A stretch of 64,000 nt of DNA from the human T2T-CHM13v2.0 reference genome, Homo sapiens, in NCBI RefSeq assembly GCF_009914755.1, contig NC_060945.1, one strand, 5' to 3'. The position numbers and the translations under genes are program-made. Shown in pieces: positions 9,989-16,776 of the stretch. The notes under the pieces were generated by a model, which was not told the DNA's origin, made no database searches, and saw nothing but the letters and a program-made list of their open reading frames with translations. How positions within the stretch are numbered: position 1 is the stretch's first letter; every line of letters starts with the position of its first letter.

Positions 9989-10168
9989 CTTCACGTAGGT
10001 GCGCTCCGTCTCCAGGAGCTCGCAGATCACCTTGCGCAGCTTATCTGCATCCGAGAGTTGTCTCATGGTCGCCAGCTGAGGCCCCGTGGAGTCCTGAGGA
10101 GATGGGCTCTGGTCAGAGGGGTTCATCTCATGCAAACTGCGGCAAAATGCGGCCACCTGTTCTGTACT
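9989..10168 (-). CDS. TIAM1: TIAM1 coding exon, start of DH domain (STEQVAAFCRSL...KLRKVICELLETERTYVK), 180 nt, phase 0-0
   Basis: Overlaps ORF 9938..10156; DH CR1 motif ELLETERTYV; acceptor ctccgaag|AGT, donor AAG|gtatgt. Confidence 0.96.
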
Positions 10169-13585: not shown

Positions 13586-16186
13586 ACAGAGGCAGAGCAC
13601 ACCTTTTATCATTTAGGCAAACTGTGTGAAATCGTGATTCACGAAAGGCAAACATGGGGATCTGACACATATCAAAGGCAGGAAATTCCAAAAGACAAAG
13701 GAACCTAACACATTCCTTTGTGCTTCCAATTCACACCTCACTACCTCTGGGTTTTCATTCCATCTGTTCTACCATAAATACTTTGAGAATTCCATTTTTA
13801 AGAGTGTGAACAGGGTTTCTGACTTGGTCTATGTAAGTTTACCACGCCTGAGGTTTGGCATCCTTAGTTTGAAGCAGGCCTGTGGGGTGAGCTCAGGTTA
13901 GTAGGATGCAGGCTAGGGCTTCAGTCCTCTAAATTCAGCTGTCTCCTAGGCCCAACCTCACCCTCAGACAGCCAGAGATAAGTTCTGGCTTATATTAGGA
14001 AACACCTTTAGCATCTCAGGGGACAGCTAAAATTCCCTTGGGTCCTCTTTGGACATTTCACAGCCTTAAGTATCCCTTCCTTATTAGGTACGACCTAGGC
14101 CTAGGATAGACTTAGCTGAGTGGTCTCTCAAGTTGAGCAAGGGGCAAAGCAGTTTCCCCACCGGCAACCCTACTCAATGAATCAAGGCACCAACCCTCAG
14201 GTGTAGCACAAGGAACTGAGTCCAGATGGATGTAATCTCTTTACTGTCAACTGCACGTTATTTGAATAAAGAATAAAAAGGTACCATATGCATCATTACA
14301 AGTTATAATGCACATACATGTTGTTAAGCGGTGTTATATACAAGCCTCTTAAAATTTGCTTGGAAACAAATTAAAAGGATGTCATCAAGTTTGAAAATTC
14401 TGTTTTATTAAAATAACACCCCCCCAAATTTTTTTTGGAAGGAATTATGAAATGCAGGTTTTCTTTAGAATACCTCTAAGCTAGAGATTTTTCCATACTG
14501 TGGGGCTCAGCTTTTAAATCCCCCTCCCTCTTTACTGTGGCCAAACTTCTTTACATCAAAATCCATCAGGCCCTTCTCCACGCAGCTTAGCCATGATGTG
14601 GAATATAGGAGGAGTTGGGTTCAAGGCTTTGCCCCGCTCCACCACTGAGTGTTACAGATGGCATCCTAGTCATTCCCACACCAAGCGCTGTAGCCACAAG
14701 TGCCAAGAAAGGTCGCCTCAATGGGAGCTTCTCAACACGCTCCCAAAAGCCAAGTATCCTGGATGTGGGACAAGCAGCTTAGGACTCCAGCAAGGGGAAG
14801 GCAGACCAGGTTTCTCCAGTGGGGAAAGTAAAAACCTCTCCCCTACTTGAGGACTGTAATCAGTCACCCTGGAAACCAAAAAAGTACTTACAGGCATTTT
14901 GAGAGTTTAAAACTGTTAAAGGGTAGCAGAGCTTTTCCACTGTCAGGACTAAGAATTATCCAACCAACATACAGACAAGGAGAGGACAATGGCAAGAGGA
15001 AATGGGCCACTTTACTGAGACCAGCGTGATGCTCAATGTTTATAATGCTGCTTTCCTCCTGTGGAAGATGAAAAGAAAGTACAAAAAGAGGGGGTAGACT
15101 TTTAAGTACACACTATCAACTCAAGCCACCCAGCTGTTTAAGCTCTTCCTGTTATGCAACCACCAAAGGCAATTTCTAACTCTAGATGAGTTCACAGTTC
15201 TAAAACTGTTCTTTGAGTCTGACCGATTTAACACATCCCACAGATTTAAAAGGGGCCAGAGTGGCCTAAAATCTTATAGCCTTTACTTAAGCTTTTTTTG
15301 GGGACAATGCGCTCCATAATTTCAGAGACACTATGTACAATGGTAATCCCTACAGTTCTCGATCACCTTTTCAGTTTCCTCTTGAACAAACTTCAAAGAA
15401 GAAATATCCAAGAAGGAAGAAGGCTTATTTGAGCAAATCAGGTGTACGCACTGTAGAAGTTTAAGTTTGATTAAATGACACAACATCTAATAGTCGACAG
15501 ACTGAGCTATTAATAATAAACTATTAAAAGGTTGAATCTGATTTTGCTAAATTATTTCTTGCCATTACCCCACTACACTTCCTCATTGGAGAGTGAATAT
15601 TTACTGTAGGAATAGACCTGTTCAAATAGGTCAGTTGCTGTCAAACCAGTAACACGTCCCCTGAGCCAACCCTTCTATATCTATCTCCTTCTCAAGGAAG
15701 CAGAAATAAAGTCAAAAACACCTCAAGCCTTATAAAAGGAAACAAGTTGAACATCCTATTTCCAGACCTCCCTGCCGATCACTCGGACAGCCCGTTCTGA
15801 GGGGGGATGGGAGATTCTCACCATGCACGTAACACAAAACACAATCAAAATCTCAATAACCAAAACAAAGGCAAAAAATGCAACTGACCATTAATTAAAC
15901 AAAAAAATGCAGATTACATCTTTCTGCCATTTAAGTATAAAAGAGTAGAAAAATGTAAAGATGCTAGGCAAATTCAACTCCATACCAACTCTGAACCTCC
16001 CCACGTCCCCCACCAAAAGCCACAATACAGACTTTATGAACAAGGGTATCCAGAGGGTAAAAGGACAGAATACGGGGAAATGGGAAAGGTGTAATCACTG
16101 TCATTCGGATTGAAAAACAACTGAGCTAGAAAGTCATAACACAATCAAACCTAGCAAGATAGGATTCAAACAGCAAAGGCGCTCAC

Positions 16187-16276
16187 CAGATGAAGTGTTC
16201 GATACATAGAGTCACCGGACTTGTCATTGTTTTCAATCCTGGGCTTGCGCTTTATTTTCCACAGTGCAGACATCAT
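16187..16276 (-). CDS. TIAM1: Candidate alternative first coding exon of a short TIAM1 isoform (MMSALWKIKRKPRIENNDKSGDSMYRTLHL)
   Basis: ATG-initiated 30 open codons ending at donor CTG|gtgagc in phase 0, in frame with the DH exon at 10168; in-frame TAA upstream at 16343-16345; non-repetitive sequence. Confidence 0.65.
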
Positions 16277-16299
16277 CAGGAATGTATTCTCATGGTAAT

Positions 16300-16776
16300 T
16301 AATTCTACCACCTGACGTGTTCAGCACGGAGACAGAAGTTTCTTAAAATATTCCCAGAGCACCAAACGCCTCCTAGCTCTGAAGAGAGCATCCTCTCATA
16401 TGGACGTCCCATGCTGGTTTTCCCATGAAAATCTACGGCCACGTCTCAACGCAGCAAGGACAGCGACGGTGAGACCCCGGAGCTGCACTCGCTTCCCACC
16501 AGTGCCCTCTGGGAAGCTGTCAAAGGCTAAACTGTGGACCAGAACTCAGGCTTTGATTTCACCTGGCTAAACAACAAAAGTTCCAGAAAGGGAGAGCTGA
16601 AACTGGCAAGAAAACAAAGCACAAAATGCCTCCCCGGGATGTAAGCGTCTCTGCCCTGCAGCCTGAGATCAGCTGATTGGCCAGCATCCTGCACTGCTCA
16701 GGAATATTAAACCTGCCCGGCTCCGACAACTTTCAAGGTATTCCACACTGAGTCAAGAGCAGGCAACTAAGAAAAG

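What the first reader, a model, noticed from the sequence alone, without database searches (positions are those of the whole stretch)
16187..16276. Hidden alternative first coding exon giving a short, DH-PH-only TIAM1
Seen: in unique intronic sequence on the sense strand, ATG ATG TCT GCA CTG TGG AAA ATA AAG CGC AAG CCC AGG ... CAT CTG runs 30 open codons into a consensus donor CTG|gtgagc. It is in phase 0, matching the next exon (STEQVAAF..., 10168). An in-frame TAA lies upstream at 16343-16345 and no in-frame acceptor is evident, so it behaves like an initiating exon, not a cassette. It is too short for the ORF track. Known: the TIAM1 N-terminal region (PEST, PHn-CC-Ex, RBD, PDZ) controls localisation, stability and autoinhibition, and the paralog TIAM2 has a short isoform (TIAM2S) starting just before the DH domain. 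Inference: a product of roughly 620 aa (assuming the recalled 1591-aa full length) lacking all N-terminal control, with a new basic motif KIKRKPR that could be an NLS or membrane-binding patch. It may already be annotated as a minor transcript.
Basis: partly seen in the sequence, partly recalled or inferred. Interest (0 to 1): 0.8.

Follow-up and report, generated by a model that had tools for sequence, protein, structure and literature searches.

The report
Known short TIAM1 isoform's first exon
This stretch is the coding end of an already annotated and published alternative first exon of human TIAM1, which makes a 624-residue protein with only the catalytic DH-PH half; its 30-residue leader is conserved from fish to man.

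Summary
On the minus strand, ATGATG at 16276 opens 30 codons that end at a CTG|GTGAGC donor (exon end 16187). An in-frame TAA lies upstream, and the exon joins the exon at 10168 in phase 0. It is not hidden. The hub's RefSeq table lists exon 16187-16678 and the variant 9989-10093.

A 2021 JBC paper (PMC8551657) describes two N-terminally truncated TIAM1 isoforms, NP_001340613.1 and NP_001340614.1, of 71 and 68 kD with only DH and PH2. It detected the longer one by RT-PCR, Sanger sequencing and western blot in one patient's glioblastoma cells. Expressing it restored Lgl1 phosphorylation. The orang-utan orthologue carrying this leader is 624 aa and 70.98 kDa, or 68.25 kDa without the 25 residues skipped by the 10093 acceptor.

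New here: a homologous leader precedes the same exon in models from mammals, turtles, birds, paddlefish and teleosts, in 48 of 124 proteins held. It has a basic N-part and a nearly fixed [DE]-S-[ILV]-[YF]-x-[MT]-L-[HQY]-L end. The exon is therefore ancient and constrained.

The sequence pattern alone is not above chance. An NLS or membrane role for KIKRKPR is untested.

Verdict: real and correctly interpreted, but already known.

The parts
16187..16276 (-). Coding part of the alternative first exon: 30 codons, MMSALWKIKRKPRIENNDKSGDSMYRTLHL. There are two adjacent start codons (16276, 16273).
   Evidence: The same peptide heads the short TIAM1 models of orang-utan, macaque, titi monkey, ground squirrel and Mastomys.
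16277..16678 (-). 5' untranslated part of the annotated first exon (402 nt). It holds five upstream ATGs at 16426, 16412, 16399, 16391 and 16293. The last opens a 5-codon uORF whose TGA (16278-16276) overlaps the main ATG.
   Evidence: Exon limits come from the hub's RefSeq table; the uATG list comes. The ATG at 16412 has A at -3 and G at +4 and opens 35 codons.
16343..16345 (-). In-frame TAA upstream of the start codon. It closes the frame, so the 30 codons cannot be reached in frame from further upstream in the exon.
16181..16186 (-). Splice donor GTGAGC.
   Evidence: The exon end at 16187 equals the RefSeq exon end (hub table). Two models that read through the donor continue with Val-Ser, as GTGAGC would give (whale P0003 and unnamed P0007).
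16679..16760 (-). Presumed core promoter. It has a TATA-like TTTAATATT at 16711-16703 (-33 to -25 from the annotated start), CCAAT at 16680-16676, and no CpG island (CpG observed/expected 0.21 over 200 and 0.22 over 500 upstream bases).
   Evidence: and direct reading. Promoter activity was not tested. The motif names are recalled consensus sequences.
9989..10168 (-). Shared second exon (STEQVAAFCRSLHEM...), the phase-0 acceptor partner. The alternative acceptor at 10093 skips 25 codons (STEQ...SPSPQ) and gives the 599-aa form.
   Evidence: and the hub table (9989-10093). The same skip is seen in a bird model, P0024.

Best explanation
This is the 3' end of an alternative first exon (16678 to 16187, minus strand) of TIAM1. 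An internal, non-CpG, TATA-type promoter in the intron ahead of the DH-coding exons presumably drives it. The exon supplies a 402-nt leader and 30 codons, and is spliced in phase 0 to the exon at 10168, or to its inner acceptor at 10093.

The products are proteins of 624 or 599 residues: a 30-residue unique leader plus canonical residues 998-1591 (DH domain, second PH domain and C-terminal tail). They lack the myristoylation site, PEST, PHn-CC-Ex, RBD and PDZ. These are the isoforms that RefSeq lists as NP_001340613.1 and NP_001340614.1.

Shown by others: the longer isoform is made in glioblastoma cells, and expressing it promotes Lgl1 phosphorylation.

Inferred: it keeps Rac-GEF catalysis but loses both the N-terminal autoinhibition and the membrane and scaffold targeting. 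It therefore acts as a separately regulated, mostly non-membrane Rac activator. The conserved leader (a basic, probably disordered head and a [DE]S[ILV][YF]x[MT]L[HQY]L tail next to the first helix) probably adds some targeting or regulation of its own.
For: Anatomy:
- ORF, donor, upstream stop and phase are as described.
- The exon end at 16187 and a start at 16678 are in the hub's RefSeq table, as is 9989-10093.

Identity with the published isoforms:
- The orang-utan model P0004 begins with the same leader (29 of 30 residues identical to human) joined to STEQVAAF. It is 624 aa and 70.98 kDa, or 599 aa and 68.25 kDa without the 25 residues.
- PMC8551657 gives 71 and 68 kD for NP_001340613.1 and NP_001340614.1 and says they encode only DH and PH2 (passages read).
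- Pfam finds only RhoGEF and PH_Tiam1/PH in P0004.

Expression and activity (PMC8551657, passages):
- RT-PCR from the start site plus Sanger sequencing in PriGO9A cells.
- C-terminal antibody bands of the truncated size.
- The cloned cDNA gives the same doublet and promotes Lgl1 phosphorylation.

Conservation:
- All 7 hits and all 6 carry the peptide: primates, two squirrel-family rodents, a murid with one codex... corrected: one codon fewer in frame, a whale and one unnamed record.
- In one search, 533 proteins passed E <= 1e-20 and the best 120 were listed.
- Of the 124 proteins then held, 48 carry a homologous leader at the N-terminus directly before the STEQ exon: mammals, turtles, birds, paddlefish and many teleosts.
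- In those 48, the last nine leader positions are nearly fixed: S 48/48, L 48/48, L 47/48, D/E 46/48, Y/F 43/48.
Against: - I could not read the RefSeq records, so the link between this exon and the two NP accessions rests on exon coordinates, size, mass and domain content, not on a residue-by-residue match.
- The paper's TIAM1 primers are not in the text, and its supplements could not be read.
- The orthologous proteins are computed gene models. I could not see their transcript support.
- The 5' leader carries five upstream ATGs, one of them in strong context, and the first main ATG has C at -3. Translation from the full-length leader should therefore be inefficient.
- In marmot, the 22 codons upstream of the ATG are about as conserved (16/22) as the 30 codons (24/30). 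Within mammals, part of the conservation may thus be at the DNA level.
- TCGA exon counts in the paper suggest strong use of this isoform is uncommon: the difference between adjacent exons is less than 2-fold.
Confidence: 0.93

Rival explanations
1. The exon is transcribed, but the 30-codon frame is not the real start. The transcript is poorly translated or non-coding, or translation starts further down at Met45 (10126) or Met65 (10066) of the shared exon, so the leader peptide has no role.
For: - The leader has five upstream ATGs, and a uORF stop overlaps the main ATG.
- The first ATG has a weak context, TTCCTG|ATGA.
- Met45 has G at -3 and is the start of several database models beginning MNPSD.
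- Mammalian TIAM2S has no separate leader exon: its 5' region is contiguous with exon 16 (PMC6394906).
- The pattern alone is at chance level.
Against: - The leader's frame, start and tail are kept from teleosts to man, and length changes are in frame. Untranslated sequence is not expected to do this over that distance.
- The second ATG has A at -3.
- The published bands fit 71 kD (PMC8551657).
Confidence: 0.04
2. It is an internal cassette exon that inserts about 34 residues into full-length TIAM1, as the marmot and whale gene models read it.
For: - Marmot models P0001 and P0002 (1523 aa) and whale P0003 (807 aa) place the peptide inside or at the end of long proteins.
- One phase-0 AG lies at 16290-16289.
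Against: - The human in-frame TAA at 16345-16343 blocks any longer cassette.
- The one in-phase AG has a poor pyrimidine tract, 8/18.
- RefSeq draws the exon up to 16678, far beyond it.
- The marmot model also skips the STEQ exon, and the whale model runs into the intron. Both look like prediction errors.
- A ground squirrel model, P0008, starts with the peptide.
Confidence: 0.02
3. The ~70-kDa C-terminal TIAM1 species seen in cells come from proteolysis of the full-length protein, and this exon contributes little protein.
For: - The paper saw a doublet and a weak third band and put them down to post-translational modification (PMC8551657).
- Cleavage of TIAM1 by proteases is known to me from memory only. 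It was not checked here.
Against: In the same paper the short transcript was amplified and sequenced from the cells that show the bands. The cloned short cDNA alone reproduced the doublet.
Confidence: 0.01

Closest known systems
TIAM1 short isoforms NP_001340613.1 / NP_001340614.1 (RefSeq; Lorimer laboratory paper, J Biol Chem 2021, PMC8551657)
   Same: - N-terminally truncated, with DH and PH2 only.
- Masses of 71 and 68 kD, against 70.98 and 68.25 kDa computed for the orthologue with this leader.
- The two forms differ by a small in-frame piece, which fits the 75-nt difference between acceptors 10168 and 10093.
- The exon coordinates are in the RefSeq table for this window.
   Different: Nothing is known to differ; I take them to be the same thing. 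The paper calls them splice variants and does not discuss the separate promoter, the leader peptide or its conservation.
TIAM2S, the short isoform of the paralogue TIAM2 (PMC4799941; PMC6394906)
   Same: - Own transcription start in the intron just ahead of the DH-coding exons.
- About 626 aa in man, with DH-PH and the C-terminus only.
- Own promoter and its own, tissue-restricted expression.
- Functions distinct from, and even opposite to, the long form in mouse sperm.
   Different: - In mouse, the Tiam2s 5' region is contiguous with exon 16 and the ORF starts inside shared sequence (579 aa), so there is no separate leader exon.
- The TIAM2S core promoter is TATA-less and GC-box/Sp1 driven. 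Here the upstream sequence is CpG-poor with a TATA-like element.
- One unnamed TIAM2-type protein (P0136) does have a 37-residue leader ending VLYRLLFL, but homology to the TIAM1 leader is not significant.
Artificial truncations C580-Tiam1 and C682-Tiam1 (Michiels et al. 1997, PMC2139766; Mertens et al. 2005, PMC2171536)
   Same: The natural isoform carries the C-terminal 594 canonical residues, which lies between C580 and C682. The domain content is the same, DH-PHc.
   Different: - The constructs lack the 30-residue leader.
- They do not reach the plasma membrane, do not ruffle and do not activate JNK. A Src myristoylation-plus-basic tag rescues ruffling.
- C580 does not bind Par3.
- Whether the natural basic leader changes any of this is unknown.

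Membership tests
RefSeq-annotated alternative first exon of the TIAM1 short isoforms | Exon boundaries coincide with an annotated exon | tested here: met
   The hub table lists 16187-16678 among exons of other transcripts. The donor found puts the exon end at 16187.
RefSeq-annotated alternative first exon of the TIAM1 short isoforms | Predicted products of 71 and 68 kD containing only DH and PH2 | tested here: met
   The orthologue P0004 is 624 aa and 70.98 kDa, or 599 aa and 68.25 kDa without the 25 residues. Pfam finds RhoGEF plus PH_Tiam1/PH only.
RefSeq-annotated alternative first exon of the TIAM1 short isoforms | N-terminal residues of NP_001340613.1 identical to the 30 codons | not testable with these tools
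   The human RefSeq record cannot be read here. The cluster of 112 sequences around P0004 was not itemised.
RefSeq-annotated alternative first exon of the TIAM1 short isoforms | Spliced reads 16187->10168 and a transcription start near 16678 | not testable with these tools
   No RNA-seq, CAGE or long-read data are available. RT-PCR plus Sanger sequencing is reported in PMC8551657 without primer sequences, and its supplements are not readable.
Conserved protein-coding exon | Start codon, frame and exon-end kept in distant species, with in-frame length changes only | tested here: met
   48 of 124 held models, from mammals to teleosts, start with a homologous leader joined to the STEQ exon. The leader is 20-36 residues long. 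The last 9 residues are nearly fixed. Mastomys has one codon fewer. The test was at protein level only; no codon-level test was possible.
Classical monopartite nuclear localisation signal (K-K/R-X-K/R, recalled consensus) | Four-residue core K-[KR]-x-[KR] within KIKRKPR | tested here: not met
   By reading WKIKRKPR: K-I-K-R fails at position 2, K-R-K-P fails at position 4, and R-K-P-R does not start with K. The basic cluster is still NLS-like in a loose sense. Function was not tested.
TIAM2S-type leader shared between paralogues | Significant sequence similarity of the TIAM1 leader to a TIAM2-type leader at the same exon boundary | tested here: inconclusive
   - P0136 is TIAM2-type: 66% identical to TIAM2-like P0133 from residue 38 on, and P0133 matches the TIAM2 PHCCEx structure best.
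- P0136 has a 37-residue leader with a basic middle and the end VLYRLLFL.
- A leader-only HMM scores it 3.1 bits, and 80 of 2000 composition-matched shuffles do as well. It is not among the top hits in 149 proteins.

The most novel reading that the evidence does not exclude
The 30-residue leader is not a by-product of an internal promoter but an old functional module. It has a positively charged, disordered head and a nearly invariant [DE]-S-[ILV]-[YF]-x-[MT]-L-[HQY]-L tail abutting the first helix before the DH domain. It has been kept since the common ancestor of ray-finned fish and tetrapods, and possibly since before the TIAM1/TIAM2 split.

TIAM1-short would then be a physiological, separately targeted or regulated Rac activator in all bony vertebrates, rather than a tumour oddity. 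The leader would decide where or when the free DH-PH core is active. I found no paper that says this (searches).
Probability: 0.4. Interest if true: 0.45.

Novelty: already known. Interest (0 to 1): 0.2.

Why it matters
TIAM1 is a major Rac1 activator in polarity, migration, synapse formation and cancer, and nearly all work treats it as one 1591-residue protein. A natural isoform with only the catalytic half escapes the N-terminal autoinhibition, degradation signals and scaffold binding.

C-terminal antibodies, 3' siRNAs and most expression probes pick it up without distinguishing it. Knock-outs that target 5' exons would leave it intact.

Because the exon is annotated and one paper has shown the protein and an activity, the finding adds no new object. 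The deep conservation of the leader does argue that the isoform deserves isoform-specific study.

Tried and rejected
- Earlier findings of this scan were not open.
I re-sent it as a longer window reference that runs up to the in-frame stop.
- The supplements of PMC8551657 could not be read, so the RT-PCR primers could not be matched to the exon.
- Accession search: only the JBC paper and its preprint name NP_001340613/4. The two NM numbers I tried were guesses from memory and matched nothing.
- Further searches for another description of an internal TIAM1 promoter or first exon found nothing relevant in the listings.
- Homology of the TIAM1 leader to a TIAM2-type leader was tested with a leader-only HMM and shuffles. 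It was not significant (3.1 bits; 80 of 2000 shuffles as good), so it is kept only as a lead.
- AlphaFold2 on the 47-sequence alignment gave mean pLDDT 59.7. Residues 1-23 were below 50, there was a four-residue helix at 24-27, and a helix at 32-44. This is too weak to say how the leader sits on the DH domain, so no fold search was run.
- The phase labels printed for candidate acceptors were wrong because of my arithmetic. One search gives the correct ones.
- No mammalian genomic DNA, RNA-seq, CAGE, Ribo-seq or PhyloCSF data are reachable with these tools, so codon-level selection and expression could not be measured.
- Repeat status could not be tested: the window file is not soft-masked, and only the longest masked stretches are listed.

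Full report
**1. The observation**

Read on the minus strand, which is the TIAM1 sense strand, ATG ATG begins at 16276. Thirty codons (MMSALWKIKRKPRIENNDKSGDSMYRTLHL) run to 16187 and meet CTG|GTGAGC, with GT at 16186-16185. The frame is closed upstream by TAA at 16345-16343.

The next annotated exon starts at 10168 with AGT ACA GAA CAG (STEQ...) behind an AG. The five coding exons upstream of it in the window total 603 nt and read without a stop as ...DHSSK|STEQVAAF..., so that junction is phase 0 and matches the candidate exon.

Between the TAA and the ATG there are three AG dinucleotides. Only 16290-16289 is in phase 0, and only 8 of its 18 upstream bases are pyrimidines (the labels were wrong).

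**2. Is the pattern more than chance?**

By sequence alone, no. On the minus strand of the window there are 145 GTRAG sites, and 10 of them end an ATG-started open run of at least 30 codons in phase 0. With a G before the GT there are 23 sites, of which 3 do so. Block shuffles gave 1.28 +/- 1.13, with a maximum of 4, over 50 shuffles. The case rests on other evidence.

**3. What it is**

The hub's RefSeq table for this window lists 16187-16678 and 9989-10093 as exons of other TIAM1 transcripts.

The upstream 402 nt hold five ATGs:
- 16426.
- 16412, with A at -3 and G at +4, opening 35 codons.
- 16399.
- 16391.
- 16293, opening a 5-codon uORF whose TGA overlaps the main ATG.

The first main ATG has C at -3 and the second has A at -3.

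Upstream of 16678 the DNA is CpG-poor: observed/expected 0.21 over 200 bases and 0.22 over 500 bases. It carries TTTAATATT at -33 to -25 and CCAAT at the annotated start. This looks like a tissue-restricted, TATA-type internal promoter, but promoter activity was not tested and the motif names are recalled.

**4. Related proteins**

I searched with the window's translation from the in-frame stop to the donor. All 7 of 7 candidates carried the peptide:
- Short TIAM1 models of orang-utan (P0004, 624 aa, a cluster of 112 sequences), pig-tailed macaque and titi monkey.
- Two marmot models and a grey-whale model that read the peptide as an internal or terminal piece.
- One unnamed 103-aa record that reads through the donor.

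A second search with residues 1-40 of P0004 added a ground squirrel and the murid Mastomys (622 aa, a cluster of 76). Identity to the human 30 codons is 29, 29, 27, 24, 24, 23, 27 and 25 of 30. Mastomys lacks one codon in frame.

P0004 contains RhoGEF (77-265) and PH_Tiam1/PH (274-443) and no other Pfam domain. The leader is followed by 594 canonical residues, that is 998-1591 of the 1591-residue protein.

**5. Already in print**

PMC8551657 (J Biol Chem 2021; passages read) reports the following:
- Glioblastoma cells of one patient (PriGO9A) over-express a short TIAM1.
- PCR from the start site plus Sanger sequencing identified the longer one.
- A C-terminal antibody sees the short bands.
- The cloned cDNA gives the same doublet and promotes Lgl1 phosphorylation in PREX1-null cells.

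P0004 weighs 70.98 kDa. Without the 25 residues between acceptors 10168 and 10093 it weighs 68.25 kDa. I take the exon, the RefSeq isoforms and the published protein to be one and the same.

The residue-level match to the NP records could not be made here. The primers are not in the text, and the supplements could not be read. An accession search found only this paper and its preprint. Other searches found no further description of this promoter or exon.

**6. How it probably works**

Shown by others:
- The DH-PHc core is the Rac exchange unit.
- The artificial C682 and C580 proteins, which bracket the natural C594 core, are not at the plasma membrane, do not induce ruffles and do not activate JNK.
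- A Src myristoylation-plus-basic tag restores ruffling (PMC2139766).
- C580 does not co-precipitate Par3 (PMC2171536).
- One paper, now under an expression of concern, saw C580 in the nucleus (PMC3737373; PMC8153487, listing).

Inferred: the natural isoform is a Rac activator free of N-terminal autoinhibition and degradation signals, but also of membrane and scaffold targeting. Its output depends on its own promoter and, perhaps, on its leader. The authors of the JBC paper expect it to be constitutively active.

**7. What is new here**

A search with the whole of P0004 found 533 proteins at E <= 1e-20, and the best 120 were listed. Of the 124 proteins then held, 48 start with a homologous leader joined directly to the STEQ exon. 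They include:
- Turtles (MMSAFWRVKRKPRNKGMERSCDSLYHMLHL).
- Duck and songbirds (MSALWRGSRKLRSESADRDGDSLFRMLYL).
- Paddlefish.
- Zebrafish (MSVLKRSRHSKRSSDSIYDLLHL).
- Many other teleosts, of both TIAM1-like kinds.

The other 76 fall into several groups:
- Long or partial forms.
- Models starting at the internal Met (MNPSD...).
- Models with other short heads, as in frogs, lungfish and bichirs.
- Cases my pattern missed, such as the bird model P0024, which joins the leader to the inner acceptor.
- The four records that have no STEQ exon after the peptide.

In the 48, the last nine leader residues are almost fixed: D/E 46, S 48, I/L/V 46, Y/F 43, D/R 45, M/T 45, L 48, H/Q/Y 47 and L 47, each of 48. 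The head keeps a net charge of +2 to +6 but not its sequence. KIKRKPR is therefore the mammalian version of a conserved charge cluster, and the better conserved motif lies at the other end.

AlphaFold2 on a 47-row alignment gave low confidence overall (mean pLDDT 59.7). Residues 1-23 were below 50, with a short helix at 24-27 and a helix at 32-44.

These are computed gene models, and I could not see their transcript support. Within mammals the untranslated codons just upstream are about as conserved as the leader: marmot has 16/22 against 24/30.

**8. The paralogue**

Human TIAM2S is about 626 aa and has its own promoter (PMC4799941). Mouse Tiam2s starts in intron 15, contiguous with exon 16, and encodes 579 aa, so it has no separate leader exon (PMC6394906).

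In the representative library, one unnamed TIAM2-type protein (P0136, 685 aa) has a 37-residue head: MPVLR..., a basic middle, and the end VLYRLLFL before the homologous exon. From residue 38 on it is 66% identical to P0133, and P0133 matches the TIAM2 PHCCEx structure better than the TIAM1 one.

The likeness to the TIAM1 leader is suggestive, but a leader-only profile gives 3.1 bits and 80 of 2000 shuffles score as well. An origin before the TIAM1/TIAM2 split is a lead, not a result.

**9. Verdict**

The object is already annotated and has been shown experimentally, so its novelty is nil and its interest low. The deep conservation of the leader is a modest addition that I did not find in print.

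Noticed in passing
window 16207-16205 (minus strand), codon 24 of the leader: Human has Met (SMYRT) where orang-utan, macaque, titi monkey and Mastomys have Ile, and the squirrels, the whale and the unnamed record have Val. This adds an in-frame ATG in weak context (GACTCT|ATGT). I could not tell whether it is fixed in humans or an allele of this assembly.
   Followed up: partly
window 10126-10124 and 10066-10064 (minus strand): In-frame ATGs lie at codons 45 and 65 of the short isoform. Codon 45 is, by my arithmetic (1591 - 580 + 1 = 1012), where the artificial C580-Tiam1 begins, and several database models start there (MNPSD...). Leaky scanning past the weak first ATG could give a product about 5 kDa smaller. 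This might explain the doublet that PMC8551657 saw from a single cDNA and ascribed to modification.
   Followed up: no
window 16293-16276 (minus strand): A five-codon uORF (MRIHS) has a TGA that shares its A with the main ATG (TGATG). This arrangement allows termination-reinitiation. Its conservation could not be checked without DNA from other species.
   Followed up: no
window 10093 (minus strand) and protein P0024: The inner acceptor that skips 25 residues (STEQ...SPSPQ) is also used in a songbird short-isoform model: leader joined to DCAGPQ.... The 599-aa form may therefore be old too.
   Followed up: partly
window 16755-16749 (minus strand): TGACTCA, the recalled AP-1 consensus, lies about 75 bases upstream of the annotated exon start. 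A 7-mer like this is expected several times by chance in 64 kb. It was not tested.
   Followed up: no
proteins P0148, P0150, P0156, P0161, P0168 (unnamed long relatives): In distant long relatives of TIAM, the residues just before the ...AEQVT.FCR... segment read [ED]-Q/x-I-[ED]-x-L-L-K (for example SFEIENLLK). phmmer aligned these with the tail of the TIAM1 leader (SIYRTLHL). The leader tail may replace an ancestral helix extension that the canonical vertebrate upstream exon lacks. This is by eye only.
   Followed up: no
proteins P0021, P0026, P0032, P0047, P0055: Frog, paddlefish and bichir models have other very short heads (MILQK, MLAK, MEK, MTHEFKK) joined to the same exon. This suggests a second internal start in the same intron in some lineages.
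   Followed up: no
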